A DNA stretch of 64,000 bases. Source: a phage. This document shows positions 27,046 through 46,803 of this stretch, one piece after another. The notes beneath the pieces were generated by a model, which saw nothing but the letters and a program-made list of their open reading frames with translations, searched no databases and was not told the DNA's origin. Both the position numbers and the translations under genes were made by a program. Numbering within the stretch: the first letter of the stretch is position 1; every line of letters begins with the position of its first letter. The stretch is from the sequence record PZ379176.1. The stretch is one strand, 5' to 3'.

Positions 27046-27238
27046 GAAAAGACAGGCTCTTCGGAGACTTGAAGCCAAGTATTTAATGTTACGGTGCAAA
27101 ATCAACCGACATGAACGTTTCGTTGAAGCTGCACAAACCAAAAACTTTGAATCATCAGTGGAGATGTTCAAGACCCAACTTTCTTTTTATAGGAAAGAAC
27201 AGGAACAAGTGTGGGATGAAATTCGTTCGTTCTACTAA
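27035..27238 (+). CDS. hypothetical small protein
   Basis: ORF track; start uncertain. Confidence 0.3.
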   Translation: MNLEKRQALRRLEAKYLMLRCKINRHERFVEAAQTKNFESSVEMFKTQLSFYRKEQEQVWDEIRSFY

Positions 27239-27264
27239 GCTCAAGGATTCCAAGGAGGAAGAGC

Positions 27265-29055
27265 ATGTCAAAGATCATTTTGGGAGACACAGGTTGTAAG
27301 GAATGTATCTCTCATGGTCGTGATAAAACCCACAACCACATGATTCTCTTCCGTAACGAAGAGACTGGTGAGGAGTGGGGAAGTTGTAACCGTTGTGGGA
27401 ATTACGAAGTGTTCGAAAAGGGCACTACACCTACTCCAAACGAGAAGAAAGAGTTATCCCCTGAAGAGTTGAGAGAAGTCTTAGATGATTGCTTAGAGCT
27501 TCCTCAGGGTGAACTTACTCGCCGTTTAATCCCTAAAGCTGTATCAGAGCGGTTTGAGTGTCGTATTGGCCTCAGTCAAACTGATGGTCAGACACCAGAC
27601 AGTTACTTCTTTCCTCGTGAACGTGATGGAAACATTGTCGGATATGAGGTTAAGCTGCTAGATAGTAAGAAGTTCTATTACGTCGGCAGTGTTAAAGAAG
27701 CAGATTTGTTCGGTATGGCACAAGCCCAACGTGGAGATGTGTACAACAAGAAGCTCTTCATTTTTGAAGACCCGCTATCCTGTATGTCAGGTTTCCATGT
27801 CCTTACAGCTTTTACAAATGCAACAAACATTAAACCAGCATGTGTTTCTTTACCGTTCGGTGCAGGTTCAATCTCTTCTGTGTTGTCTCGTAATCGAGAC
27901 TTCGTAAACGGTTTTGAGGAGGTTGTGCTCTGCATGGACAACGATGATGCAGGTGAGATAGCTTTAACAAAAGGTCGTTCTTTATTCCCTCATGTTAAGT
28001 TTGCTCGTATTCCTAAAGGAACTTTCCCATACAACGGTGTGGAGAAAGAGATTAAGGATGCGAATGACATGCTTCTGTCTGGTCGTGGTCAAGAGTTATT
28101 CAACATTCTCAAATATTCAGCAAAGCGGGAATCTCCTGCTGGTGCTGTAACAATCTTTGATTGCCTTGATGATGCTCTGAAGAAAGCGGAGTGGGGTATT
28201 CCCTATCCGTGGAAAACTCTTAATGAGATGACCTTCGGTATTCGATGGGGAGAGGTGGTAGCAATTGGTGGTGGAGTAGGGAGTGGTAAAACACTCATTG
28301 CTCACGAGCTGGTTGCTCATCTGTGCTTAGAGCATGGTTTTAATGGAGGTGGCTTCTTCTTGGAAGAGAAGGTAGGCATGTCTGTTAAGAACATCGCTGG
28401 TAAGTCAGCATCAATTCCTTTCCACCGACCTGATGTTGAATATGATGAGGAGGATTTGCGTAATGAAGCACTTCGTTATGCAGACAAATTCTTCTTGTAT
28501 GACAACTTCGGACAGAACGAATGGGAAGACATTAAACAGTGTATACGTTTCTGGGTAGTTGAAAACCAGTGTAAGTTTATCATCCTTGATAACATTACCG
28601 CTCTGGTGTCTCATTTAACTCCTTCAGAGATTAACACTGAAATCAGTAAGATTGCTTCCGAGCTTGCTGGTATGTGCAAAGAATTAGACTTTACCGCTTT
28701 CGTTCTATCTCACCTTAATGCTCCGGCAGGTGGTGCTCCTCATGAAGAAGGTGGACAGGTACGTGAAGTACAGTTCACTGGCTCTCGTTCTCTTATGCGT
28801 TGGTGTCAGTGTATCATTGGCTTTGAGCGTGACAAGCAAGCTGACGGCTTAGCTAAGAACCTCTCAGTCATTCGATTACTGAAAGAACGTAACTACGGTC
28901 AGACAGGTGTCTGTTATACTAAGTATATCAGTGAAACCGGTAGACTTGTAGAAAGGGAAGACTTTGAAGTTGATGAAGATAATCCATTCGTTTTAACTAA
29001 CGGAGAGGATGCAGCTTCTCTCGTCAACCAAGCAGATGGAGCTTCACCGTGGTAA
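27265..29055 (+). CDS. T7 gp4-type DNA primase-helicase
   Basis: N-terminal zinc ribbon CKEC...CNRCG, TOPRIM-like middle, Walker [10 protein letters not shown] and DnaB-like helicase motifs. Confidence 0.85.
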
Positions 29056-29606
29056 AGAAAAAGAAGAAAGTGTTTGCATTCGATATCGAGAGTAATGCAC
29101 TGTACGATGACATAACTAAAGTATGGTGTATTTATATCTTTGATGTTGAAACTGGTGAAAGGTGGGGCTATCGGCCTCACCAAATTGAAGATGGGATTCG
29201 TAAACTTACAGAAGCAGATGTACTAGTGGGTCATAATATTATTGACTTCGACTTACCTGCTCTGAAAAAGATGTATCCTTCTTTGATTAAATATAATTTT
29301 AACGTCTTTGACACTTTATGTCTTAGTCGATATCTTAAACCTGACCGTATTGGTGACAGTCCTGAGTATCCGAAAGGCGACCCTAGACGTGGCCCAAGAG
29401 GTCATGGTTTGAAGCAATGGGGTGAGTTCTTAGAGGAACTTAAAGGTGACTACGGTGAGCAAGAGGAAGCATGGGATGCTTTCACTGAAGATATGTTTAC
29501 TTATTGTGAACAGGACGTTAACTTAACTGTTAAGGTTTATCTTTTCTTGTGTGAACTCACGGGATTTGACCCTTACGACCCACCTTCATTATATTGGAAA
29601 ATGTAA
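29049..29606 (+). CDS. DNA polymerase 3-prime to 5-prime exonuclease domain (T7 gp5-like N-terminal part) as separate ORF
   Basis: [10 protein letters not shown] and YRPHQ...[17 protein letters not shown] parallel the T7 gp5 N-terminus; GTG start overlaps primase-helicase stop. Confidence 0.8.
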
Positions 29607-29607
29607 A

Positions 29608-30921
29608 ATGATTGTTATCCCGATTAACCAAATTGAAGATAAGGTTGCTCAACAACCTGATATCACTGTTGGTCGTCACTTCATTGAACAATTGATTAAC
29701 AACAACTTGATTCCAGATGGTATCTGTCCCATCATTACTGGTGGGGCTGTTCGTGATGCTGTCCTTAATAACATAGCTCCACATGACATTGATATCTTTA
29801 TTGTCAGAGGACAAACACCAAGAACTCAAAACACTTTCATCCCAACTGATCGTTGGCAAGAGCTTGGACGGGAGATTGAAAGTAATGTGAAGGAATGGCT
29901 AGAGTCACAAGATATTGAATATGCATCACTTCTTGCTGAAGCTACAAACGAATCCTATGCTGGGGGTTCTCAATTAACATTCACTGATATTATTGAGTTT
30001 CAGTGGAATGGGGTTCGTATCCAATTCATGTTTAATTATCCTACTTCTATTGAAGAGGTATTGGATAATTTTCCTATGATGTGCCGTGGTGCGATGACTC
30101 TTGACAACTTATTCATGACTTCTCACGGATATTTGGCTATGACTTCCCCTTGTCCAGTGGTTGTCTATAGTCGTGAAATCAGGTATGTTCACAAGAAGTG
30201 GCCTAACTCACAAGTGTTGAGATTTTCCTCTCCAGCAGTTGCGCATCAATACATGGCCCAAACTCGATATCTTCCCACACCTCAGCCAGTTAGTCATCTA
30301 GTCAATGGATTAGGTCAGGTTTCTCTTATTGAAGATACAACAAGTGCTCTATATTGTGTTAACCAAGACATGAGTCGATTCTTTGGAATCCCTTATGAAG
30401 AGATTCAGATTATGTCTAGTCTTCACGGTTCTGGTCAGATTCATGCGTATTGGTCTGAGGGGTTGACAAATTTAACGACTAACACGGGTGGTGATCTGCT
30501 TGGTCGAGAAGAGGAACCTAACCGACACAATGCAATTGAAGGGGTGTTTGTAGCCCCTGCAATGCGTCGAGCACAAGAGTCACGAAGAGAAAGCCCTACT
30601 CGTAGAACATCTTTTGAAGAAGCTCTTGGTATTACAAGTGATTCTATGGAGCGATGGATGGCTAGACCCTCTCGTGGTCGACCAAACGGCTTAACTGTTA
30701 GCGCACGTCAGTTCTCTGGTCAGGGTTTCGCTGTTGGTGATATCAACGCCCCTTCTCGTGTTATCTGGACTGATGAAGGTATGGAACAAGATTTGGGAGA
30801 TAGTCTCGCTGATCGCTTTATTGCTAACAACCCTGAAGTATTAGAACCTCAAACCCGTACAGTTCGGTTTGCCGATGAAGCGGGTCGTGGAATCTCTTTT
30901 GACATGGAAACAAATAACTAA
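29608..30921 (+). CDS. pol-beta superfamily nucleotidyltransferase (CCA-adding / poly(A) polymerase head-domain-like)
   Basis: ITGGAVRDAVL...HDIDIFIV matches GG-x-VRD and D-x-D head motifs. Confidence 0.55.
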   Translation: MIVIPINQIEDKVAQQPDITVGRHFIEQLINNNLIPDGICPIITGGAVRDAVLNNIAPHDIDIFIVRGQTPRTQNTFIPTDRWQELGREIESNVKEWLESQDIEYASLLAEATNESYAGGSQLTFTDIIEFQWNGVRIQFMFNYPTSIEEVLDNFPMMCRGAMTLDNLFMTSHGYLAMTSPCPVVVYSREIRYVHKKWPNSQVLRFSSPAVAHQYMAQTRYLPTPQPVSHLVNGLGQVSLIEDTTSALYCVNQDMSRFFGIPYEEIQIMSSLHGSGQIHAYWSEGLTNLTTNTGGDLLGREEEPNRHNAIEGVFVAPAMRRAQESRRESPTRRTSFEEALGITSDSMERWMARPSRGRPNGLTVSARQFSGQGFAVGDINAPSRVIWTDEGMEQDLGDSLADRFIANNPEVLEPQTRTVRFADEAGRGISFDMETNN

Positions 30922-30930
30922 GGAATAAGA

Positions 30931-31464
30931 ATGAGTTTACTAGGAAGTATTGAACTGCATGATGTAATTGACAATGGCTATCTGGATGCGGAGCATAAGT
31001 ATGTTAACGCTGCTAGTGTGGATATCCGTATTGGTGATACTATCCTTGTTGAAGAACAGGCTGATGGCATCGTTGATATTGATGCGAAAGAGAATCTTCA
31101 GTGGAAGGAAGTAAAGATTCCTGAAGAGGGTTTGGTTATCACTCCGGGTCAGTTCTTCTTGGCTCACTCTATGGAGGAGTTTAATCTTCCAGATAACATC
31201 TCAAGTCTGTTTGTTCTGCGTTCGTCTATGGCTCGTTGTGGTTTGAACCACCTTCACGCCGGTTGGGCAGATGCAGGATTTAATAGTAGTAAGCTGACAT
31301 TTGAATTCCATAACGTAACCAAGCACCACAGCTTACGAGTTCGTGCTGGTATGCGTGTTGGTCAGATGGTTATGTTTGAGCACTCTCATGCAGGGGAACA
31401 TTCCTACGCAGTGAAGGGTCGTTATAATAACTCTGAAGGTGTGGTTGCATCTAAAGGTGTGTAA
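30931..31464 (+). CDS. dcd: dCTP deaminase
   Basis: ASVDIRIGD and HAGWADAGF motifs typical of the dCTP deaminase/dUTPase fold. Confidence 0.7.
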   Translation: MSLLGSIELHDVIDNGYLDAEHKYVNAASVDIRIGDTILVEEQADGIVDIDAKENLQWKEVKIPEEGLVITPGQFFLAHSMEEFNLPDNISSLFVLRSSMARCGLNHLHAGWADAGFNSSKLTFEFHNVTKHHSLRVRAGMRVGQMVMFEHSHAGEHSYAVKGRYNNSEGVVASKGV

Positions 31465-31662
31465 ATGAAAAAGTGGATTGTTCGTGTACATGATAACACG
31501 ACTGGAGAGTTAGTAGCTGTAGATTTTGTTAAGACTCGAGAGCACGCACGTAGGGTCAAAAATCAATACAAGTCTACTTTTAGACTTAATAAGGTTACAC
31601 TAGGAAAAGCTATCGTGAATAGTGAAGGTGCTTTTTGTGTCAACAGTAAGGTTTATTACTAA
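31465..31662 (+). CDS. small protein, tandem paralog 1 of 3
   Basis: 65 aa ending in YY; similar to next two ORFs. Confidence 0.45.
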   Translation: MKKWIVRVHDNTTGELVAVDFVKTREHARRVKNQYKSTFRLNKVTLGKAIVNSEGAFCVNSKVYY

Positions 31663-31871
31663 TGAGACCAATCACTATGAGAAAATTCTGGTTAGCGAAG
31701 ATTAAGTGGGCATCAGGTGGTATGACTATGACTGCACTCCCTACTCGTCAACAAGCTCGAGATTTTAAAAAGACTATGCTTACTGGTGACGTGGTTAATA
31801 GTATCAGCATCCATAAGGCCAAGGAGTATTCTTCTGGTCGTGTTTATATCAGCGGAAAGGTACATTACTAA
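31662..31871 (+). CDS. small protein, tandem paralog 2 of 3
   Basis: 69 aa ending in HY; TAATG overlap. Confidence 0.45.
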   Translation: MRPITMRKFWLAKIKWASGGMTMTALPTRQQARDFKKTMLTGDVVNSISIHKAKEYSSGRVYISGKVHY

Positions 31872-32080
31872 TGAAAAAGATGTGGGCTATTCATGTTGTT
31901 TGGGATCTTGAGCAACACATGAGAAAAGATAACATCAAATTGTTTGACACTCGCAAAGAGGCTCGTATTGCTAAGAAACAGTTGAAGACTCTGGGCACAA
32001 TAGTAAAAAGCGCTGACATACATCGCTGGTATGAAGACCCTAACACTGGTTCTTTTATGTCTAAAGTAATTTACTACTGA
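31871..32080 (+). CDS. small protein, tandem paralog 3 of 3
   Basis: 69 aa ending in YY; TAATG overlap. Confidence 0.45.
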   Translation: MKKMWAIHVVWDLEQHMRKDNIKLFDTRKEARIAKKQLKTLGTIVKSADIHRWYEDPNTGSFMSKVIYY

Positions 32081-32152
32081 TTGGTAGTAGATATGATAAC
32101 TCTCAAATGTATATAGAGTACAATAAGAATTTGTATTTTACAGGAGAGAGTT

Positions 32153-32482
32153 ATGTTAGATTTGAGTAAAGTGGCCCCGCCCACTGAAGAGATTACAAAA
32201 TCCAAGGTGATGCAACAGTTTTATCATCGTGATATGCTTGGTCGCTTTATCAAGAATCGTGATGTTGTTGCTTGGTCTATTGGTAATCAGGGATATCTGT
32301 TGAAGGTTCTTCAGGTTACAGGTTCAACTGCTAAGCGAGTTAAGGTGTATGACCCTGAAATGGGGCGTTCTAAGTCAGTAGACCCACAGAACTGCATCGT
32401 AATTACCCAGCAGGTAATGGATAATATTGCACGTAACGTTGCTAACTCAGTTGAACTTGATGGAGAAAACCCAAATGCATAA
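32153..32482 (+). CDS. hypothetical protein (109 aa)
   Basis: ORF track; SD GGAGAGAG. Confidence 0.45.
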   Translation: MLDLSKVAPPTEEITKSKVMQQFYHRDMLGRFIKNRDVVAWSIGNQGYLLKVLQVTGSTAKRVKVYDPEMGRSKSVDPQNCIVITQQVMDNIARNVANSVELDGENPNA

Positions 32483-33038
32483 GAATGTTTTTGATTTACC
32501 TGAGATTGGTCGTGACAGCTATAGCATGTTAGACCGGTCCGACCTATCAATCTCTCGCCTTGAAACAATGCAAGGCATGATTAGTGGAAACAGCCTAGAA
32601 CACATCCTGAGCTGCTTACAAGCTAACATGGAACTCTTGCATATCAAAGCTAAAAACTACCACTGGAACGTCTCTGGTGCAGGATTTCAGGGTGTTCATG
32701 GTATGTTTGATGAGCTGGAAGATTACGCACGACAGGTAGGAGATCGTATTGCTGAACGTATGCGTTACCACTGTGTTAAAGTGGATGCTACAGCAGCTAA
32801 TTATCTTTCTCATGCTTGGTTCTCAGAGGGGAATGCTGATCTAGACATGGACGGTATGCTCTCTGATATGTGCATGACCTTGATGTGTATTATTGAGAAG
32901 ATGGATGAGTTTGATGGTGATTTAGCCTCCTACCCTGTCGATCAGAGTATGCTTCAAGAAATTAATGAAGGTCTTGGCAAGTATTGCTACTTCGTCAAGA
33001 GCAACATGTCCCATTCAAGTGGTGACGTGTCTTACTAA
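32460..33038 (+). CDS. Dps-like ferritin-superfamily protein
   Basis: LQANMELLHIKAKNYHWNVSGAGFQGVHGMFDELEDY...DRIAER matches the Dps core signature; start at 32460 or 32475. Confidence 0.6.
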   Translation: MEKTQMHKNVFDLPEIGRDSYSMLDRSDLSISRLETMQGMISGNSLEHILSCLQANMELLHIKAKNYHWNVSGAGFQGVHGMFDELEDYARQVGDRIAERMRYHCVKVDATAANYLSHAWFSEGNADLDMDGMLSDMCMTLMCIIEKMDEFDGDLASYPVDQSMLQEINEGLGKYCYFVKSNMSHSSGDVSY

Positions 33039-33098
33039 AACCTCCGCCCTGTCTCCTAACCCGAGGTGGGGCGAACTTATTTATAAGGATATAGATAT

Positions 33099-33278
33099 AT
33101 GTTATCAGCAATCGTATGGGGTATTTGGGCTATCTTTATCGGTGGTGGTATTTATTGGGCTTCTGGTAAGCTTATTGAAGAAACTCCTGATAAGAAAGGT
33201 GAGATTCAAACAGCATCAACCATCATGGTTATCGTAGCTGTTGTTATCCCATTCCTGCTTCACCTCCTGACTGCATAA
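33099..33278 (+). CDS. small membrane protein (59 aa, two hydrophobic segments)
   Basis: ATG after AAGGA; below track cut-off. Confidence 0.3.
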   Translation: MLSAIVWGIWAIFIGGGIYWASGKLIEETPDKKGEIQTASTIMVIVAVVIPFLLHLLTA

Positions 33279-33286
33279 GGATTTAC

Positions 33287-33562
33287 ATGTCTAAAGTAAT
33301 TAAGTTTTATAGTGATCAGTGTGCTCCATGTAAAGCAATGGCTCCTACCTTTGAGAAGGTTGTTAAGGAGTTTGATGTAGAAGTGGAAGAGATTAACATC
33401 CTTGAAGGTGATGGTCGTGAACAAGCTGTTAAGTATGGTGTACGAAGCATCCCTGCTTTTGTTGTGCCTGACCGTAACAGTGGTGCACACTACAGCCTCT
33501 CCGGTATGCAGACTGAAGCAAACCTGAAAGCATTTTTGGACACAGCCCTGAGAAATAAGTAA
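33287..33562 (+). CDS. thioredoxin-like protein
   Basis: Active site CAPCK and cis-Pro-like SIPAF in thioredoxin-fold spacing. Confidence 0.7.
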   Translation: MSKVIKFYSDQCAPCKAMAPTFEKVVKEFDVEVEEINILEGDGREQAVKYGVRSIPAFVVPDRNSGAHYSLSGMQTEANLKAFLDTALRNK

Positions 33563-33577
33563 TAAGGATATTCACGG

Positions 33578-34234
33578 ATGAATGAACAACTACAAGCAAC
33601 ATTAATCGAAGCTATGGGAAGTGATCGTAGCGTAGTAAACGCAGCTCGAGTTTCCTTTGGCGTAACCCGTGAAGGTGATTTAAATGAACGTGATGAACGT
33701 CTCATCAACTTCCTCGCAAGAGAGAAGCATGTTACCCCATTCCGACACCCGCAAGTCAGTTTCCGATGCAAAGCACCTATCGCAATTGCAAGACAGTTGG
33801 GCAAGCATCAGGTTGGATTCTCGTGGAACGAAATGTCCCGGCGGTATAAAGATGGAGCAGTTGAAGTCTTCATCCCTAAAGAGATTTTTGCGAGACCTTC
33901 GGACCTCCATGCAGGTTCAGGGATTCAACTCATCGACGGAGAGCGAGCTGAAGCATTAATGTTAATTAACGATGCATATGAAGCTTCTCTAGCAGCATAT
34001 GACAAGTTGATTGAGTTTATTGCACCAGAGCAAGCTCGATTTGTTCTTCCTCAGGGGATGATCACTGAGTGGGTGTGGACCGGTTCTTTGTATGGCTGGT
34101 TTGAGTTGTGTCGTCAGCGACTCTCCTCTCACGCTCAATATGAAGTTCGAGTGTTTGCTAAATCTGTAGACGAAGAGATGTCTAAGATCTACCCAATCTC
34201 GTGGGCAGCTCTGAAGAAAACATTGGAGATTTAA
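33578..34234 (+). CDS. thyX: ThyX-like flavin-dependent thymidylate synthase homolog with divergent signature
   Basis: FRHPQVSF...LGKHQVGFSWNEMSRRY resembles the ThyX RHR-x7-S-x-RY region but has KHQ where RHR is expected. Confidence 0.55.
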   Translation: MNEQLQATLIEAMGSDRSVVNAARVSFGVTREGDLNERDERLINFLAREKHVTPFRHPQVSFRCKAPIAIARQLGKHQVGFSWNEMSRRYKDGAVEVFIPKEIFARPSDLHAGSGIQLIDGERAEALMLINDAYEASLAAYDKLIEFIAPEQARFVLPQGMITEWVWTGSLYGWFELCRQRLSSHAQYEVRVFAKSVDEEMSKIYPISWAALKKTLEI

Positions 34235-34380
34235 TATTGGAAGAAGATGACGACGTGTTCTGTACCAAGTGCGGAATGACAGTGGATGATGCATATGACC
34301 CAAGTGTAGAAATTTGTCCATGTTGCGGGGTATGTGAGTATTGCTGTTCTCATAATCCAGAGGATTAGCAGGAATTTCTG

Positions 34381-34614
34381 ATGAAAATCAAACATATTAC
34401 AGATATTCAGGAGGCATTTAGGATGCTTCCTCGAAGAGAGAAGGATAAGATTAAAAAGCTTATTCAAGTTTATGGTCATACATCTAAAGATGATGTAGAC
34501 TATATGCCTTCTACTTTCGTAGAGTGTGGGATTGCTCGCGGTTTCACATTCGACCATAAAGTATTTCAGCAATTCGTTGACCACTGGAGAAAAGATGGAA
34601 AAGAAAGTCTGTAG
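34381..34614 (+). CDS. hypothetical small protein
   Basis: ORF track. Confidence 0.4.
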   Translation: MKIKHITDIQEAFRMLPRREKDKIKKLIQVYGHTSKDDVDYMPSTFVECGIARGFTFDHKVFQQFVDHWRKDGKESL

Positions 34615-34780
34615 CTTCTGTAAGAAAGAGAAACCTATCGCCAACTTCAAACCTAACCCTGTAACCGGTCTGACCCATGTCATGTGCCACTCTTGCAGGA
34701 TATATCTTGAAACAAAGCACACTATCAATAGGTTGCACTATTATCACCCAACAACATTCAAATTTAAGGTTGTGAAATGA
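34595..34780 (+). CDS. small zinc-ribbon-like protein
   Basis: CSFC...CHSC; ATG at 34595 in track frame. Confidence 0.4.
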   Translation: MEKKVCSFCKKEKPIANFKPNPVTGLTHVMCHSCRIYLETKHTINRLHYYHPTTFKFKVVK

Positions 34781-35100
34781 TTGACAGTAATACATTTAGG
34801 ACTTCAAATGGAAGTGAAATAAGTCCCGCTGAAGTAATCAATCGGCATAGAAGGCAATTGATCATCCATTCCTATTTGTATTACTGGTTGGATGACCCTA
34901 TCTGGTCTGATGATAAATGGCAACAAGTTGCTAATGATCTAGTGGAGCTGCAAGCTCTGTATCCAGAACCTACTGGAGTCTTTGACAACGAGTTTAAAGA
35001 TTGGGATGGTTCTACAGGTATGCATCTCCCACATAACGAAGCTGTTGCTTGTATGGCGACAGCTGTTTACAGACTTCATAAAGAGGTTAACGTCGCATGA
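34777..35100 (+). CDS. hypothetical protein (107 aa)
   Basis: ORF track; ATGA overlap. Confidence 0.45.
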   Translation: MIDSNTFRTSNGSEISPAEVINRHRRQLIIHSYLYYWLDDPIWSDDKWQQVANDLVELQALYPEPTGVFDNEFKDWDGSTGMHLPHNEAVACMATAVYRLHKEVNVA

Positions 35101-35297
35101 GCGTAGTTTATGTTCTAGAAAGATACGCTGAAGATCACAACAGTATTGTTGCCATATTTAAACATGCCCCGGATGTTGAGGACATTTTGAATGTGACTCA
35201 CTTAACTGATGTTGATAAAATCAAAGACCTCATCAGGAATGACAATGCCCACATAGGTGACTCTCTGTGGTCTCTTACTGAATGGACATTGTGGTGA
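35097..35297 (+). CDS. hypothetical small protein
   Basis: ORF track; overlap. Confidence 0.4.
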   Translation: MSVVYVLERYAEDHNSIVAIFKHAPDVEDILNVTHLTDVDKIKDLIRNDNAHIGDSLWSLTEWTLW

Positions 35298-35479
35298 AGT
35301 GCTCTAAATGTGAAGGAACAAACCTTCATTTAAGTAACAAGGTTATCAGAGAGCTTGCTAAAGGCTCTCCAACCAAAGGGAAGAACAAACGATTTACTAA
35401 CGTCAGGGTTTATACAGCAATCTGTAAAGACTGCTTAACTACTGAGTGTCATTACGAAGAAATTGGAGAGCGTAAATGA
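35282..35479 (+). CDS. small zinc-ribbon-like protein
   Basis: CSKCEG...CKDC. Confidence 0.4.
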   Translation: MDIVVKCSKCEGTNLHLSNKVIRELAKGSPTKGKNKRFTNVRVYTAICKDCLTTECHYEEIGERK

Positions 35480-36213
35480 GTCGTCGTCAATCACGGAAAG
35501 AATCACGGAAAGACCTTCGTCGGGAAGCACTTGTTACTCGTAAAGGTAAGCGAGAGTATGAAGAGGTGGTTTTAGCAAAGCCTGTAGTCCCTCAGAACCA
35601 GTTTCAGTCTGAGCTACTCAATGCTATTAAGACTAAACAAGTTGTGTTCACAGACGCTCCTGCGGGCTGTGGTAAGACCTTTGTAATCACTTCCACAGTT
35701 ATTGATGCACTGAAGAGCGGTAAGATTCAGAAGATCATTCTGAGTCGCCCTTCGGTTGGCATGGGCAACTCTCTTGGGTTACTTCCGGGAGGAATGCGTG
35801 AGAAGTTTGAACCATACCTGATGCCTATCATTGATGTTATTACTCAGCGATATGGTAAGGGATTCTATGAATGCCAAATCGGAAATGGTAACATTGAGTT
35901 TGTACCTCTGGAATATCTCCGTGGTCGTTCTTTCAATGATGCTATTGTTATTGTTGATGAGTTCCAGAACACAACTAAGGATGAAGCCTTCTCCATCATG
36001 ACTCGATTGGGAGAAACCTCTCAATTGTTCTGTATGGGTGATACAAACCAGCATGATATGCGTGGTCGCGAGAGTGGTCTAACTTGGGCTACTAACTTTA
36101 TTGATGAACACGATCTGTATGAGTTTGCTGAGATTGTAGATGGTGAATCAGATGATATTGTTCGTTCTGGTTTCTGTAAGGCGATTGTTAAAGCAATGGA
36201 AAAGAAAGCTTAA
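35476..36213 (+). CDS. phoH: PhoH-like P-loop ATPase
   Basis: Walker A APAGCGKTF and downstream IVDEFQN / MGDTNQ motifs. Confidence 0.75.
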   Translation: MSRRQSRKESRKDLRREALVTRKGKREYEEVVLAKPVVPQNQFQSELLNAIKTKQVVFTDAPAGCGKTFVITSTVIDALKSGKIQKIILSRPSVGMGNSLGLLPGGMREKFEPYLMPIIDVITQRYGKGFYECQIGNGNIEFVPLEYLRGRSFNDAIVIVDEFQNTTKDEAFSIMTRLGETSQLFCMGDTNQHDMRGRESGLTWATNFIDEHDLYEFAEIVDGESDDIVRSGFCKAIVKAMEKKA

Positions 36214-36224
36214 ACAGTAACTTA

Positions 36225-36233
36225 TAATGTATA
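36225..36233 (+). promoter_or_regulatory. TAATGTATA motif (candidate phage-specific promoter element)
   Basis: Exact 9-mer 37 nt upstream of ATG 36270. Confidence 0.4.
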
Positions 36234-36269
36234 CTCCTTAGTGTACACTGATATATTAAGGAGTTCTAA

Positions 36270-36584
36270 ATGGCAGATCATGTAGGAAAGAGAGATTATG
36301 CACAAGAAAGACGTACCGCAATTGCCCGTGGTGAAACAGGCGTTGGGAGCAAGAGCGGAGATGCTCAGCGCCACCGTGCACGTCGCATCGTTGAAAAGCG
36401 CGATGGAAAAGCTGCTGTCAGAGGTAAAGACGTTGGACACAAACGAGCTGTCAAGTCTGGAGGCTCTAATGCGTCAAGCAACTTACGTGTTGAATCAGTC
36501 AGCTCAAACCGTTCAAACGGCGGCAAAAGTGGTGATCGAGCTGGAAAAGCAGCTGGAGCACGCAAAGGAGCTTTAAGCTCATAA
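36270..36584 (+). CDS. basic low-complexity protein (Arg/Gly/Lys/Ser-rich)
   Basis: Strong SD TAAGGAG 8 nt upstream; AT-rich third positions; an alternative frame (36298-36576) is also open. Confidence 0.4.
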   Translation: MADHVGKRDYAQERRTAIARGETGVGSKSGDAQRHRARRIVEKRDGKAAVRGKDVGHKRAVKSGGSNASSNLRVESVSSNRSNGGKSGDRAGKAAGARKGALSS

Positions 36585-36594
36585 AGAGGTTATA

Positions 36595-36888
36595 GTGTCA
36601 GCAGAAACAAAAAGATGTACAATTCACACTTATTGTAAATTCTGTAAAGCAGAGGGTGTAAAAAGAGTTGCAACTTTAATGACCAAGTATTCTCCAAGTA
36701 GAGGATACAGGGACCACTATAAGCACTACTCTTGTAGTGATCACTCCTATCTATTAGAAGATACAGACCCGAATAGAACAAGGAGAGAGCATAACATTGA
36801 CCTGAGAGCTACTCTCAAGGAAATGAAAAATAACTCTCGAAACAACCATTACACTGAAGCTGACTATCAAACTTGGCTTCGTCTCTAG
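36595..36888 (+). CDS. hypothetical protein with Cys/His cluster
   Basis: ORF track; CTIHTYCKFC. Confidence 0.4.
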   Translation: MSAETKRCTIHTYCKFCKAEGVKRVATLMTKYSPSRGYRDHYKHYSCSDHSYLLEDTDPNRTRREHNIDLRATLKEMKNNSRNNHYTEADYQTWLRL

Positions 36889-36957
36889 AACAAAGGCTGC
36901 CTAATCAGGTGGCCTTTTCTTTTATATAAACCAAATTAAACTTCTTAGGTAATAAAT

Positions 36958-37212
36958 ATGTCTATTGTAAAAATCGTAAATATCATTGATGTAACTCGTA
37001 CCGGTAAAACTATCAGTTGGAAATTCACCAATAAGCATAGAGGTTCAGAGAACATCATTCGTTCTATGATTCAACAAAACCCAAATACAGCTCGCACTAA
37101 CGTACTCCTTCGAGGAGCTGATGGAAAATTTATCTCTTATAAGAATAAGAACGTAGAAAAATCTTTCCGTGTTGCAGTAGAAAATCTCATCCCATTCCCT
37201 AAAGGAGTTTAA
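36958..37212 (+). CDS. small protein, tandem paralog 1 of 2
   Basis: Shares GKFISYK...LIPFPKG with next ORF. Confidence 0.45.
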   Translation: MSIVKIVNIIDVTRTGKTISWKFTNKHRGSENIIRSMIQQNPNTARTNVLLRGADGKFISYKNKNVEKSFRVAVENLIPFPKGV

Positions 37213-37213
37213 T

Positions 37214-37498
37214 ATGAATAAGTTAGCTATGGTTCAAATTCGGGACACATACCCTAACCGCCCGGAGCAGAAACCGCGTACTTGGTCTTATCTGTTAGCT
37301 GAAAGTAAGACTATTGACAAATACGCTGTAGGGATTGATGCTATTCCAACTAGTATCACATTGCTCCCTCACAAAACAGCCAGAACCCATGTGATGTTAC
37401 GTGATAGCAAAGGTAAGTTTATCTCTTATCGTGATTCACGAATCAATAATGAGATTAAATCTGCTATGGAATTTTTGATGCCATTCCCAAGAGGTTGA
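37214..37498 (+). CDS. small protein, tandem paralog 2 of 2
   Basis: Shares GKFISYR...LMPFPRG with previous ORF. Confidence 0.45.
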   Translation: MNKLAMVQIRDTYPNRPEQKPRTWSYLLAESKTIDKYAVGIDAIPTSITLLPHKTARTHVMLRDSKGKFISYRDSRINNEIKSAMEFLMPFPRG

Positions 37499-37661
37499 GT
37501 GATGAAAGAATACATTTACGTAGGACAGCGCTGGTTCGGCGATGAATGGGAAGGCGGATACAGCGTTGTGAAAGCTTTTAAGTCGGAAGAAGATGCCAAG
37601 TCATGGGTCTTAAAAGACGATGTTGGCGAGAGAACTTACATTGAAGTAGAGGTGGAGTAGG

Positions 37662-38084
37662 ATGCCATTACCAGCTAGATATCCAAACCGTTTCTTAGTT
37701 CTCAAGTGGGATGATATCGAAATGAATCTCACTGAACATGAACTGGATTTGTTCCATGAATTATTATCAGAAATTCGCTCTGGTATTCCTGAACGTCAGT
37801 ATGTGGTTATCAGTGATAAACACCCTCAAGAGTTTGAAGAGGCTTGGGGTATGAAGCTGGCTTATATTCAGAGAGCTATTCAAGAAAGAGAAGAAGTTGC
37901 CAATCAGAGGGTTGTGGCTCATTTAGTACGAGAGCAACCTCGTGAAGCTAGGGCTAACCATGCACCACCTCCACCCCCTCCTTGGACAGTTGTCAACGGG
38001 ACGGTTAGGGCTTATAGTGATGAAGCTACCATGTTGAATGTAGTAGAAGATAACCAAGCCTTTACAGATTTACTTTACCAATAA
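37662..38084 (+). CDS. hypothetical protein (140 aa) with proline run
   Basis: ORF track; HAPPPPPPW. Confidence 0.45.
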   Translation: MPLPARYPNRFLVLKWDDIEMNLTEHELDLFHELLSEIRSGIPERQYVVISDKHPQEFEEAWGMKLAYIQRAIQEREEVANQRVVAHLVREQPREARANHAPPPPPPWTVVNGTVRAYSDEATMLNVVEDNQAFTDLLYQ

Positions 38085-38100
38085 TTTAAAGGAGTATAAA

Positions 38101-39944
38101 GTGAGCAACCCGGACGCTCTTCCATTTTTGACAGAGATGACTGTCGCTGATATAATCTCTAAGCAAGCAAAGCACGGAGTGAGTTTCAACCGAAGAAATG
38201 CTCGGTGGTATGTTCACCTCCTTAAAGAGATTATTGTTAATATTGACAGAGAGTTGATTCCTCTCTTACCTAAGATGAGATTAGATGGCTCTACTTACAT
38301 GAAGCCATTTAAGAAGTCTGGAGCTTTACAGAAGTGGCCTCAAGCCTATTGTGATAGGGTTGGGCTGAAAAGAGAAGATATTGGTGGAGCTTTCACCTGC
38401 GTCGAATACGTAGACTTTGACCCATCGAAAGATGCACGAGTTAAAGAAGCTCTTATGGATGAGGGTTTTCTTCCTCCAGAGTTTAACGTATCTAAGAAGC
38501 CTTGGAATACTTTCGAAATTAAGAAAGATATGCGAAAGTATGGAACATACCAAGCATGGTATACTGCTTGGATGCGAGGTAATGCTAAGCAAAAGCAGAC
38601 AGCCGAGATGGTTGACGCTGATATTAAGAAGTTCTTAGAAAAGCATTTCAGGTTTAAAACTAAGAACTATATGAAGGCTTACGTATTTGGTTTGGGATTA
38701 AACCCGAATCGCCGTAATCCTGTAACGTTTGATGAGATTAAGAAAGCACTAGCCACATCAAACAAGTGGCCTACAGCTCCTACAAACCTCGAGGAGACTC
38801 TTGAAGAAGGGTTAGGGGTGAGCTAGGGAGTGTCGGAAGTTTGCTTAAGAGACGCGTTGTAGCGGCTCACAGGCTAGGTCTTATCAGTGGACTCATAGCA
38901 AAGGAACGCGAAGATGGTAAACTTTCGGCAGAAGCTAACAGCTGCGCTACGCCGACTTTTCGATTCAAACATCGTATCGTGGTTAATATTCCCTCCCGTG
39001 GTCTGTTTGGTCACGAGTGTCGCAGTTTGTTTGAGTCTGACTATAACTCAGACAGTGATCACTCTCGTCCTTTCGTTATTACTAACGTTGTTCCTGATGG
39101 TTGTTATATACGAAAAGGTACTAACGTAATTTACGAGAAAGGTAAGCCGGGGAAGAAAGATAAACCTATAGGTGCTTACAAATATTACATACCCGCTGGT
39201 AAAGAAGTATTCTTAGGGTATGATGGTTCTGGACTTGAACTTCGTATGCTCGCTCACTACCTCATTAAAGAGTGTAGGGATATGCTTGCTGAGGCAATTG
39301 AAGAGAACAACCCAGCTAAGAAAGCTCTGGCAGAACGTGGTTTAGCTTCTGCTATTATGTATCGTGATATTCTCCTTGAAGGTGATATCCACTCCCACAA
39401 CCAGAAACTTGCTGGTCTTCCTACTCGTGACAACGCTAAGACGTTTATCTACGCATTCAACTATGGTGCTGGTGATGCTAAGCTTGGTTCAATTGTAGGT
39501 GGTGGGGCTGACGAAGGTTCAGTGATGCGAGCACGTTTCTTAGCAGAGAACCCATGTATTGCAATCCTCATTGATCGTATGACAGAGAAAGCTGCTCAAG
39601 GATACTTGATTGGAGTTGATGGTCGTAAGATTACAATGAGACGGGATGCCACTGGTAAGGTTATGGTTCATAAAGCCCTTAACACACTCCTGCAATGTGC
39701 TGGTGCTGTTGTTATGAAATATGCTATGATGTTCCTTAACAAGTGGATTGAGAAAGATAAGGTTCGTTGTGCTAAGGTAATTGATATGCACGATGAAGGT
39801 CAATTCTCAGTAAACCGTAATGATGTACAGAAACTCAAAGAGCACACCGAGCTTTGTGTTAAGAAAGCTGGCGAGTATCTGAATATGGAATGTCCTCTGG
39901 CATCTGATTGTCAGATTGGACTTAACTGGATGCATACACACTAA
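38101..39944 (+). CDS. DNA polymerase, polymerase domain (T7 gp5-like palm/fingers), interrupted by a frame break near 38805-38826
   Basis: SKQAKHGVSFN; EDGK...FRFKHRIVVNIPSRGLFGHECRSLF; DGSGLELRMLAHY; LPTRDNAKTFIYAFNYGAGDAKLG; MHDEGQF parallel T7 gp5; GTG start with SD AAAGGAG. Confidence 0.8.
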
Positions 39945-40008
39945 GGTGAGTGATGAAAGAAACCAATATCATCTACAGAACATTGAGATGTTTAGCTAAA
40001 GAGAGGGG

Positions 40009-43815: not shown

Positions 43816-43959
43816 ATGTAGGGTTGACCTGCCTCTTTTAGAAAGTGCTCAAGGAAAAGCATTAGCCACTACGTTGGAGTGGTATCAGGACCAGTACACA
43901 GAATGTGCTGCCAATCACAATGGATTGTTAGAAGCTCTGAAAGAGCGTGGAATAGAATA

Positions 43960-43960
<1 letters not shown>
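43700..43960 (+). CDS. o-spanin (Rz1-like lipoprotein), overlapping the Rz 3-prime end
   Basis: Signal peptide ending SAC then Pro-rich mature region; begins inside the Rz ORF in another frame. Confidence 0.55.
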
Positions 43961-45452
<1,492 letters not shown>

Positions 45453-45984: not shown

Positions 45985-46803
45985 ATGGAAGACGTTAAGC
46001 TCCCTGAGGTAGCTATAGTGGATGCTGACGTTCTTCGATATGAAGTGGGTGCTCTTACTCAGGAGCATCCCTTTCTTGACACAGGACGTGTTCCAGTTGA
46101 TTATAATTTCATGATTGAACGACTTCAGTACAAGATTGATACAATTATAGCTCGCTCAGGATGTAGTAAGGTTGTGTTCTACTTCAGCGAAGGTGGTAAT
46201 TTCCGTTTCGATGTTGCTAAGCAGCAAGATTACAAAGCAAATAGACCTCCCGGAGAAAGACCTTTTCACTGGCAAAACGTTGGTGATTATATTAAAGGTA
46301 AGTATGAATACATAGATGTATTTGGGAGAGAGGCTGATGATGCACTAGCTGAAAGGCAACGTAGAGATAAGAATACTATCATCTGTACTAGAGACAAGGA
46401 TTTGTTGATAACTCCCGGATGGCATTATCGTTGGGCTTGTGGAGAAAGACAGAAAGAGGTTCCTCCTCACTACGTATCTGATTTAGTTTCATGGCAAAAT
46501 TTCTTCTATCAGATGCTGGTTGGAGATGGTACAGATAATATCCCCGGATGTGGAGAACGTAAAGAAGTTATGTGGGGTGGTAAGCTCCAGCTTCGACGTC
46601 AAGGAATAGGGAAGAAAGCAGCAGCTAAACTATTGGCTGGTGTTACAGATAAGTGGACCATGTATCATATAGTACGAATGGAATATTATAAGAAGTTCGA
46701 TACTGAAGATGAAGAGAAGATGCTTGAGAATGCTCGGCTGCTCTTTGTTGGTCAGACTCCGGAAGACCTGTTCGACTGGACATGGTTAGATAAATCTTGG
46801 TAA
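45985..46803 (+). CDS. 5-prime to 3-prime exonuclease / flap endonuclease (FEN-like)
   Basis: YKANR, EADDALA, TRDKDLL and GDGTDNIPG motifs. Confidence 0.7.
   Translation: MEDVKLPEVAIVDADVLRYEVGALTQEHPFLDTGRVPVDYNFMIERLQYKIDTIIARSGCSKVVFYFSEGGNFRFDVAKQQDYKANRPPGERPFHWQNVGDYIKGKYEYIDVFGREADDALAERQRRDKNTIICTRDKDLLITPGWHYRWACGERQKEVPPHYVSDLVSWQNFFYQMLVGDGTDNIPGCGERKEVMWGGKLQLRRQGIGKKAAAKLLAGVTDKWTMYHIVRMEYYKKFDTEDEEKMLENARLLFVGQTPEDLFDWTWLDKSW

What the first reader, a model, noticed from the sequence alone, without database searches (positions are those of the whole stretch)
29049..39944. T7-type DNA polymerase encoded as separate exonuclease and polymerase genes about 8.5 kb apart
ORF 29049-29606 covers only the 3-prime to 5-prime exonuclease domain ([10 protein letters not shown]..., [14 protein letters not shown]) and stops at the exo-pol boundary. 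ORF 38101 resumes at the equivalent of the T7 gp5 segment just after the exo domain (SKQAKHGVSFN). Between them lie about 15 unrelated genes (NTase, dcd, Dps-like, thioredoxin, ThyX-like, PhoH). The exo gene start overlaps the primase-helicase stop, implying co-translation of helicase and proofreading subunit. This points to a two-subunit polymerase rather than an intein or intron arrangement.
Basis: partly seen in the sequence, partly recalled or inferred. Interest (0 to 1): 0.65.

Follow-up and report, generated by a model that had tools for sequence, protein, structure and literature searches.

The report
Known split phage DNA polymerase
This E. coli phage of the phiEco32/SU10 (Kuravirus) group encodes its T7-like DNA polymerase and the matching proofreading exonuclease as two separate genes 8.5 kb apart; the split is real and conserved, but it has already been described and annotated for this phage group.

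Summary
The window is a Kuravirus-like (phiEco32/SU10) coliphage. ORF 29049-29606 (185 aa) is a complete DEDDy 3'-5' exonuclease whose only solved relatives are the N-terminal domain of T7 gp5. The gene at 38101-39944 is an exonuclease-less T7-type family A polymerase. Joined end to end, the two are collinear with single-chain relatives (45-48% identity) and with T7 gp5. The break maps to the domain boundary, between gp5 residues 208 and 209. All catalytic residues are conserved.

The split is ancient. It is shared with LUZ24-like Pseudomonas phages and with many metagenomic relatives, and the exonuclease always lies next to the primase-helicase.

It is not new. RefSeq calls the small gene "DNA polymerase exonuclease subunit", and papers from 2012 and 2023 describe the separation for LUZ24-like, phiEco32 and all Kuravirus-like phages.

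- In this window the polymerase gene is broken into two ORFs by a one-base deletion in a G5 run at 38815. None of 93 related records has it, so it is probably a sequencing error.
- About 24 genes lie between the two parts, not 15.
- By homology to phiEco32/SU10, the exonuclease belongs to the early gene class and the polymerase to the middle class.

Physical assembly of the two proteins has not been tested.

The parts
27265..29055 (+). Primase-helicase of the T7 gp4 type (596 aa). Its stop codon overlaps the exonuclease start.
   Evidence: Pfam DnaB_C (E 1e-10) and a weak Toprim_2 match. Annotated 'DNA primase/helicase' in Bas90 and SU10. The same helicase-exonuclease adjacency and overlap occur in LUZ24 gp24/gp25 and in a relative at 54% identity.
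29049..29606 (+). Stand-alone 3'-5' proofreading exonuclease (185 aa, DEDDy type), homologous to the N-terminal domain of T7 gp5.
   Evidence: PF01612 above its cutoff. The only PDB matches are T7 gp5 residues 3-178; identity to gp5 residues 5-196 is 33%. D12/E14/N63/D68/Y152/D156 align with gp5 D5/E7/N60/D65/Y170/D174. These residues are invariant or nearly so in 42 stand-alone homologs. Annotated 'DNA polymerase exonuclease subunit'.
38101..39944 (+). Exonuclease-less T7-type family A DNA polymerase gene. It is 614 aa in relatives but is interrupted by a frameshift in this window, which gives ORFs 38101-38826 and 38841-39944.
   Evidence: PF00476 on the C-terminal ORF. The repaired protein matches T7 gp5 at E 1e-32, against 1.5e-6 for Klenow. 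Motif A D375/E380, motif B R443/K447/Y451, motif C H564/D565/E566 and the C-terminal His614 align with gp5 D475/E480/R518/K522/Y526/H653/D654/E655/H704. The AF2 model of P0066, the intact 98%-identical homolog, has pLDDT 90.5, and its top 27 PDB fold matches are all T7 gp5.
38815..38818 (+). GGGG run where every relative has GGGGG. This 1-nt deletion frameshifts the polymerase gene and is most likely a homopolymer sequencing or assembly error.
   Evidence: Alignment with Bas90 and SU10. All 93 matching phage records span one more base than the query. Two further one-base deletions lie at or next to short A or G runs at 33037 and 40006, both outside coding sequence. The truncated 241-aa product is not on record in public assemblies.
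45985..46803 (+). Candidate separately encoded 5'-3' exonuclease (FEN, in the role of T7 gp6).
   Evidence: PF02739 and PF01367 match below their gathering cutoffs. The YF01 paper reports a separately encoded 5'-3' exonuclease in all Kuravirus-like phages (PMC9965538).
33287..33562 (+). Phage thioredoxin (91 aa), lying between the exonuclease and polymerase genes. It is a candidate processivity factor; this is inference only.
   Evidence: PF00085 at E 2e-13. The polymerase keeps a segment of ~52 aa in the position of the gp5 thioredoxin-binding loop. The hypothesis is published for phage Privateer (PMC7881722).
32070..32120 (+). Middle-class promoter (AATGTATA motif at 32106) that marks the early/middle boundary between the exonuclease and the polymerase. 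A second copy of the motif is at 36226.
   Evidence: The sequence is identical to the SU10 middle promoter 'ttggtagtagatatgataactctcaaatgtatatagagtac', which lies between CDS68 and CDS69. SU10 early genes are CDS69-125 and middle genes CDS25-68; the exonuclease is gp075 and the polymerase gp051.

Best explanation
A T7 gp5-type family A replicative polymerase has undergone an ancient gene fission at the boundary between its exonuclease and polymerase domains.

Shown here:
- The N-terminal DEDDy proofreading domain is now an independent 185-aa protein. Its gene sits directly after the primase-helicase gene and overlaps it by 7 nt.
- The thumb, palm and fingers form a separate 614-aa protein encoded 8.5 kb downstream. 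The space between has been filled with about 24 genes, mainly for nucleotide metabolism.
- Both proteins keep every catalytic residue.
- They are inherited together across Kuravirus-like, LUZ24-like and many uncultured phages.

Inferred:
- The two proteins reassemble non-covalently into a gp5-like holoenzyme. The primer 3' end would then shuttle between the polymerase and exonuclease sites, within a T7-like replisome that also holds the gp4-like primase-helicase, a separate 5'-3' exonuclease and possibly the phage thioredoxin.

The extra break inside the polymerase gene in this window is a private one-base homopolymer deletion. It is most likely a sequencing error and not part of the biology.
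For: - Homology of the exonuclease to the gp5 N-terminal domain only.
- An exhaustive search finds 2,766 homologs. Of the best 150, 82 are longer than 540 aa and 36 are at most 260 aa; the long proteins listed match the exonuclease with their N-terminal ~160-180 residues, as fused PolA proteins would.
- Exonuclease plus polymerase, joined, are collinear with the fused relatives P0175, P0180 and P0181 (48, 46 and 45% identity) and with gp5 (32%). The break maps to gp5 208/209.
- The catalytic residues of both activities are conserved.
- The polymerase fold model matches T7 gp5 best.
- In 65 word-index homologs down to 34% identity, every exonuclease is stand-alone.
- The polymerase homologs listed down to ~35% identity lack an exonuclease domain; the first fused ones appear at about 43% identity over about two-thirds of the query.
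- Exonuclease and polymerase identities to the window fall in parallel in what appear to be the same contigs, paired by equal longest-contig length.
- Helicase-exonuclease adjacency is conserved in LUZ24, in a ~100-kb phage and in a relative at 34% identity.
- A fused relative has the order primase/helicase, ligase, fused polymerase. That fits a fission that left the exonuclease beside the helicase.
- There is a single PolA per genome.
- Published statements of the split: PMC3517423 and PMC9965538.
Against: - No experiment or complex prediction here shows that the two proteins bind each other.
- By homology to phiEco32/SU10, the exonuclease lies in the early gene block and the polymerase in the middle block, separated by a middle promoter and candidate terminators. 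Synthesis of the two is therefore not obviously matched in amount.
- The exonuclease is translationally coupled to the helicase, not to the polymerase.
- The polymerase gene as it stands in this window is frameshifted. If that is real, this particular genome would lack an intact polymerase.
Confidence: 0.8

Rival explanations
1. The small protein is an autonomous exonuclease that is not a stable polymerase subunit. It could work in trans, or bound to the primase-helicase with which it is co-expressed. Its role could be editing in trans, processing of primers or recombination intermediates, or degradation of host DNA for nucleotide salvage.
For: - Start/stop overlap with the helicase, conserved in distant lineages.
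- Early-class position, against middle-class for the polymerase.
- It is followed by nucleotide-metabolism genes: a nucleotidyltransferase, dCTP deaminase and ThyX.
Against: - Its closest homologs outside the stand-alone family are the covalently attached proofreading domains of PolA enzymes.
- The polymerase has no other editing domain.
Confidence: 0.13
2. The two parts are exons or exteins of one gene, joined after transcription or translation by an intron, trans-splicing or a split intein.
For: Introns with homing endonucleases do occur in this polymerase family. Bas94 has a joined CDS with a nested endonuclease VII gene. LUZ24 has gp34, gp35 and gp36, and PMC3517423 reports an intron there. 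In both cases the insertion is inside the polymerase domain, near motif B.
Against: - About 24 intact genes, promoters and terminators lie between the parts.
- Each part has its own start codon and Shine-Dalgarno sequence.
- Both ends carry extra residues that do not align with the fused relatives, rather than residues that continue the fused sequence across the break.
- No intein or Hint family hit on either part; Pfam gives only the exonuclease/RNase-H-fold families and PolA.
Confidence: 0.01
3. The frameshift at 38815 is genuine. This phage would then make the polymerase in two further pieces, or restore the frame by programmed slippage on the G run.
For: The sequence as given has two ORFs, 38101-38826 and 38841-39944. 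G runs can support slippage.
Against: - All 93 related records have G5 and a single ORF.
- The second ORF has no convincing start (TTG) within a conserved helix region.
- The window also shows other one-base deletions at or next to short base runs, relative to Bas90.
- The truncated product is absent from public assemblies.
Confidence: 0.06

Closest known systems
Kuravirus-like phages (phiEco32, SU10, YF01, Bas90; Gordonclarkvirinae): 'DNA polymerase exonuclease subunit' plus 'DNA polymerase'
   Same: This is the same locus. It shares 96-98.6% DNA identity over 27000-40000, with identical gene order and annotation. The separation of the polymerase from the 3'-5' and 5'-3' exonucleases is stated for the whole group (PMC9965538).
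   Different: Only the private 1-nt deletion that breaks the polymerase ORF in this window.
LUZ24-like Pseudomonas phages (Bruynoghevirus): gp25 exonuclease subunit plus 'DNA polymerase part II'
   Same: The exonuclease is homologous (~33% identity) and the polymerase is 39% identical over 99% of its length. The exonuclease start also overlaps the primase/helicase stop. The upstream synteny is the same: amidoligase, GATase, RimK, GGCT, helicase, exonuclease. The split is noted in PMC3517423.
   Different: The gap is only ~2.3 kb with 8 small genes, against 8.5 kb. The LUZ24 polymerase is additionally interrupted by an intron with an endonuclease VII gene. It lacks the Kuravirus insertion after motif A.
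T7 gp5 DNA polymerase
   Same: It is the best sequence and fold match for both parts. All exonuclease and polymerase catalytic residues, the motif B tyrosine (Y526) and the C-terminal histidine are conserved. The replisome partners are also of the T7 type: a gp4-type primase-helicase and a separate 5'-3' exonuclease.
   Different: - gp5 is one 704-aa chain.
- The Kuravirus polymerase has lineage-specific insertions at pol residues 144-208, 217-240, 323-366 and 392-420.
- The segment in the position of the thioredoxin-binding loop is shorter.
- The phage carries its own thioredoxin.
Fused metagenomic relatives (P0175, P0180, P0181; ~610 aa)
   Same: 45-48% identity to the joined exonuclease plus polymerase, with full collinearity. 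Gene order is helicase, ligase, polymerase.
   Different: They are single polypeptides and lack the Kuravirus insertions.

Membership tests
DEDDy 3'-5' exonuclease of family A polymerases (PF01612) | Profile match above the curated threshold | tested here: met
   34.7 bits against a cutoff of 23.6
DEDDy 3'-5' exonuclease of family A polymerases (PF01612) | Exo I DxE, Exo II Nx(2-4)D and Exo III Yx3D catalytic residues | tested here: met
   D12/E14, N63/D68 and Y152/D156 align with gp5 D5/E7, N60/D65 and Y170/D174. They are invariant or more than 90% conserved in 42 stand-alone homologs.
DEDDy 3'-5' exonuclease of family A polymerases (PF01612) | 3'-5' exonuclease activity on mismatched primer ends | not testable with these tools
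   Needs a biochemical assay
Family A DNA polymerase, T7 gp5 type | Motifs A (DxxxLE), B (RxxxKxxxFxxxYG) and C (HDE) | tested here: met
   D375/E380, R443/K447/Y451 and H564/D565/E566 align with gp5 D475/E480, R518/K522/Y526 and H653/D654/E655. PF00476 at E 2e-23.
Family A DNA polymerase, T7 gp5 type | Thumb, palm and fingers fold closest to gp5 | tested here: met
   AF2 pLDDT 90.5. The top 27 Foldseek PDB hits are all T7 gp5 (E 3e-25), against 3e-15 for Bst and Klenow.
Family A DNA polymerase, T7 gp5 type | Proofreading domain covalently attached at the N-terminus | tested here: not met
   The polymerase starts at the equivalent of gp5 residue 209. The exonuclease is a separate gene 8.5 kb upstream.
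Family A DNA polymerase, T7 gp5 type | Thioredoxin-binding loop in the thumb, with thioredoxin-dependent processivity | tested here: inconclusive
   A shorter segment (~52 aa against 76 aa) occupies the same position, and a phage thioredoxin is present. Binding has not been tested.
Kuravirus / LUZ24-type split polymerase (published arrangement) | Stand-alone exonuclease directly downstream of the primase-helicase, with an exonuclease-less polymerase further downstream and a single PolA per genome | tested here: met
   PMC9965538 and PMC3517423
Intein- or intron-split gene | Splicing elements at the junction, and no independent translation signals | tested here: not met
   Each part has its own SD and start codon. 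About 24 genes lie between them. There are no intein domain hits.

The most novel reading that the evidence does not exclude
The proofreading subunit is not docked on the polymerase. Instead it is delivered by the primase-helicase, with which it is translationally coupled and expressed early. The polymerase, expressed in the middle phase, would be clamped by the phage's own thioredoxin. That would be a T7-like replisome with a rearranged architecture, in which fidelity could be tuned independently of polymerisation.
Probability: 0.1. Interest if true: 0.6.

Novelty: already known. Interest (0 to 1): 0.2.

Why it matters
Separately encoded proofreading and polymerase subunits in a T7-like replisome are a natural test of how editing in trans works. 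They could also be useful in enzyme engineering, as a source of an exonuclease-free polymerase with a proofreader that can be added back.

The arrangement itself is already in the literature and in RefSeq annotation for this phage group, so the finding adds no new biology. What this check adds in practice:
- the exact mapping of the split point onto T7 gp5;
- the observation that the two genes fall in different temporal classes;
- a probable sequencing error that breaks the polymerase gene in this record.

Tried and rejected
- A second polymerase in the window was searched for with tblastn, using gp5, the repaired polymerase and the exonuclease as queries. Nothing was found.
- Programmed frameshifting at the G run was rejected, because all 93 relatives are in frame.
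- Exact-product look-ups of the truncated 241-aa ORF, with either V or M as first residue, found nothing.
- The phiEco32 genome paper (PMC2587145) is not held. The statement that phiEco32 was reported as split therefore rests on the citation in PMC3517423.
- Literature searches for biochemical work on the split enzyme found none in the held library. One search failed on syntax.
- A structure prediction of the joined exonuclease plus polymerase was considered but not run. The tool models only single chains, and an alignment of fused homologs would bias the result towards a gp5-like assembly.
- The consensus promoter inside the polymerase ORF could not be separated from coding constraint, because the relatives are nearly identical there.
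Full report
**Identity of the window.** Region 27000-40000 is 98.6% identical to Escherichia phage FS2B, 98.1% to SkaterBoy_Bas90 and 96.7% to vB_EcoP_SU10. In all, 123 phage records match, almost all of them E. coli, Shigella or Salmonella phages of the phiEco32/SU10 type (Kuravirus, Gordonclarkvirinae). In Bas90 and in the RefSeq record of SU10, the ORF that corresponds to 29049-29606 is annotated 'DNA polymerase exonuclease subunit'. The gene that corresponds to 38101-39944 is annotated 'DNA polymerase', a single CDS of 1,845 nt.

**The exonuclease.**
- ORF 29049-29606 (185 aa) passes Pfam PF01612.
- Its only matches among solved structures are T7 gp5 residues 3-178 (E 1e-11). BLASTP against gp5 gives 33% identity over gp5 residues 5-196.
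- D12/E14 (Exo I), N63/D68 (Exo II) and Y152/D156 (Exo III) align with gp5 D5/E7, N60/D65 and Y170/D174.
- In 42 stand-alone homologs (31-80% identity), D12, E14, H62, N63, D68 and D156 are invariant, and Y152 is more than 90% conserved.

This is a catalytically intact proofreading domain of the gp5 type, not an unrelated DnaQ.

**The polymerase.**
- Pfam finds PF00476 only in the C-terminal ORF.
- With the frame repaired, the 614-aa protein matches T7 gp5 at E 1e-32, against 1.5e-6 for Klenow.
- An AF2 model of the 98%-identical intact homolog P0066 has mean pLDDT 90.5.
- The top 27 PDB fold matches of that model are all T7 gp5.
- Motif A D375/E380, motif B R443/K447/Y451, motif C H564/D565/E566 and the C-terminal His614 align with gp5 D475/E480, R518/K522/Y526, H653/D654/E655 and H704.

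**The split point.** I joined the exonuclease and the polymerase end to end and aligned the result with T7 gp5 and with fused single-chain relatives.
- The joined sequence is collinear with P0175, P0180 and P0181 (48, 46 and 45% identity) and with gp5 (32%).
- The exonuclease ends, and the polymerase begins, between gp5 residues 208 and 209 and between P0175 residues 158 and 159. This is the linker between the two domains.
- Relative to all the aligned proteins, the Kuravirus polymerase has private insertions at pol residues 144-208, 217-240, 323-366 and 392-420.

**The window's polymerase gene is frameshifted.** The window has GGGG at 38815-38818 where Bas90 and SU10 have GGGGG.
- This yields two ORFs in different frames, 38101-38826 and 38841-39944.
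- All 93 phage records that match 38715-38915 span one more base than the query, and none is 100% identical.
- Relative to Bas90, the window also has one-base deletions at or next to short A or G runs at 33037 and 40006. Both lie outside coding sequence.
- The truncated product is not on record in public assemblies.

I conclude that this is most probably a homopolymer sequencing error, or otherwise a private mutation. It is not part of the split architecture.

**How old and how widespread the split is.**
- A word-indexed search found 65 exonuclease homologs down to 34% identity. All are stand-alone proteins of 101-247 aa.
- The exhaustive profile-free search found 2,766 homologs. Of the best 150, 36 are at most 260 aa and 82 are longer than 540 aa. 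The long proteins listed match the exonuclease with their N-terminal ~160-180 residues, which makes them fused PolA proteins.
- Polymerase homologs of 540-615 aa without an exonuclease domain extend down to ~35% identity. They include LUZ24-like 'DNA polymerase part II' at 39% identity over 99% of the query. Fused relatives first appear at about 43% identity over two-thirds of the query.
- In LUZ24, the exonuclease (gp25) overlaps the primase/helicase (gp24) just as it does here, and the polymerase lies 2.3 kb downstream. The upstream genes, amidoligase, GATase, RimK and GGCT, are the same as at window 21271-27045.
- In a ~100-kb metagenomic phage whose exonuclease is 54% identical, the order is again helicase, exonuclease, dcd, ferritin, thioredoxin, ThyX. 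There the polymerase is more than 10 kb away.
- At 34% identity the exonuclease is still stand-alone and near the helicase.
- In the fused relative P0181 the order is primase/helicase, ligase, fused polymerase.

The simplest history is a fission at the domain boundary. It left the exonuclease beside the helicase, and different amounts of DNA were later inserted between the two halves in different lineages.

**No other polymerase.** tblastn with gp5, the repaired polymerase and the exonuclease finds nothing else in the 64-kb window. Kuravirus records each have one place that matches the polymerase C-terminus.

**Expression context.**
- The helicase stop and the exonuclease start overlap (GTGGTAA), with a GGAG 7 nt upstream. 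The exonuclease stop is followed one base later by the ATG of the nucleotidyltransferase gene. Helicase, exonuclease and nucleotidyltransferase are tightly packed, so translational coupling is likely.
- The polymerase has its own AAAGGAG Shine-Dalgarno sequence.
- The SU10 paper, by homology to the experimentally mapped phiEco32, assigns CDS69-125 to the early class and CDS25-68 to the middle class (PMC4281155).
- The SU10 middle promoter between CDS68 and CDS69 has a sequence identical to window ~32070-32120, which contains the AATGTATA motif at 32106. Further copies of the motif at 36226 and 42594 match the other two reported middle promoters.
- The exonuclease (gp075) therefore lies in the early block with the helicase. 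The polymerase (gp051) lies in the middle block with the thioredoxin, the Dps-like protein, ThyX and PhoH.
- Candidate intrinsic terminators also lie between the two genes, at 33045 and 36892.

This is compatible with a two-subunit enzyme, but the two parts are not co-regulated in any simple way.

**What is already known.**
- PMC3517423 (2012) says that in all LUZ24-group phages the polymerase and the proofreading 3'-exonuclease are separate genes. It adds that a similar organisation was reported for phiEco32, citing Savalia et al. 2008.
- PMC9965538 (2023) says that YF01 encodes a DNA polymerase and separately encoded 5'-3' and 3'-5' exonuclease subunits. It says this separation is common to all members of the Kuravirus-like group and to 7-11, Privateer, Vp_R1 and BUCT695.
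- PMC7881722 proposes that the phage thioredoxin acts as a processivity factor for the T7-like polymerase.
- I found no biochemical study of the split enzyme in the held library.

**Verdict.** The arrangement is already known and annotated, so the interest is low. What remains open is whether the two proteins form a gp5-like complex, which I think most likely, or whether the exonuclease works through the helicase or in trans.

Noticed in passing
window 38128-38156 (+): A perfect sigma-70 consensus promoter (TTGACA, 17 nt, TATAAT, with an extended -10 TG; 12 of 12 matches) lies inside codons 10-19 of the polymerase ORF. It is the only perfect consensus in the 64-kb window on either strand. It is identical in Bas90, SU10 and Bas94, and it is not in the SU10 promoter table. 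Its function is unknown, and the relatives are too similar there to separate it from coding constraint.
   Followed up: partly
L010:1877-4427 (Bas94); L009:8827-11133 (LUZ24); P0079, P0164: In some Kuravirus-like relatives, and in LUZ24, the polymerase gene is additionally interrupted just after motif B (…RDNAKTFIYAFN|). Bas94 has a joined CDS with a nested endonuclease VII gene, which indicates an intron with a homing endonuclease. This explains the ~450-aa 'polymerase' proteins that cover 72-74% of the query. The window has no such interruption.
   Followed up: partly
window 33287-33562 (+), and pol residues ~58-110: A phage-encoded thioredoxin lies between the exonuclease and polymerase genes. 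The polymerase, like its fused relatives, keeps a ~52-aa segment where T7 gp5 has its thioredoxin-binding loop, whereas P0187 lacks that segment. This fits the published hypothesis of thioredoxin as a processivity factor.
   Followed up: partly
window 33037 and 40006: Two more one-base deletions relative to Bas90, at or next to short A or G runs and both outside coding sequence. They suggest systematic under-calling of homopolymer lengths in this assembly.
   Followed up: partly
window 34777-35100 (+): A 107-aa ORF consists of only the NAD+-binding Ia domain of a DNA ligase (PF22745, E 3e-35). Relatives annotate it 'DNA ligase'. It is too short to be a ligase, so it may modulate the host LigA.
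   Followed up: no
window 21271-29606 and L009:1-6483: The block amidoligase, glutamine amidotransferase, RimK-like, gamma-glutamyl cyclotransferase, primase/helicase, exonuclease is syntenic between this phage and LUZ24. The whole early replication module therefore has a common origin.
   Followed up: partly
window 38530-39360 (pol residues 144-208, 217-240, 323-366, 392-420): Kuravirus-specific insertions in the thumb and around motif A, absent from the fused relatives and from T7 gp5. The AF2 model predicts them to be structured, apart from a dip in confidence near residues 231-240, and mostly helical or beta-hairpin. Their function is unknown.
   Followed up: partly
window 28920-29052 (helicase C-terminus): The primase-helicase ends in an acidic tail with a C-terminal aromatic residue (…[32 protein letters not shown]). 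From my own knowledge, this resembles the acidic, Phe-terminated tail of T7 gp4 that binds gp5.
   Followed up: no
window 43879-45067 (+): A macro-domain protein (PF01661) lies next to the phage sigma factor, the homolog of phiEco32 gp36 (weak Sigma70_r2 match).
   Followed up: no
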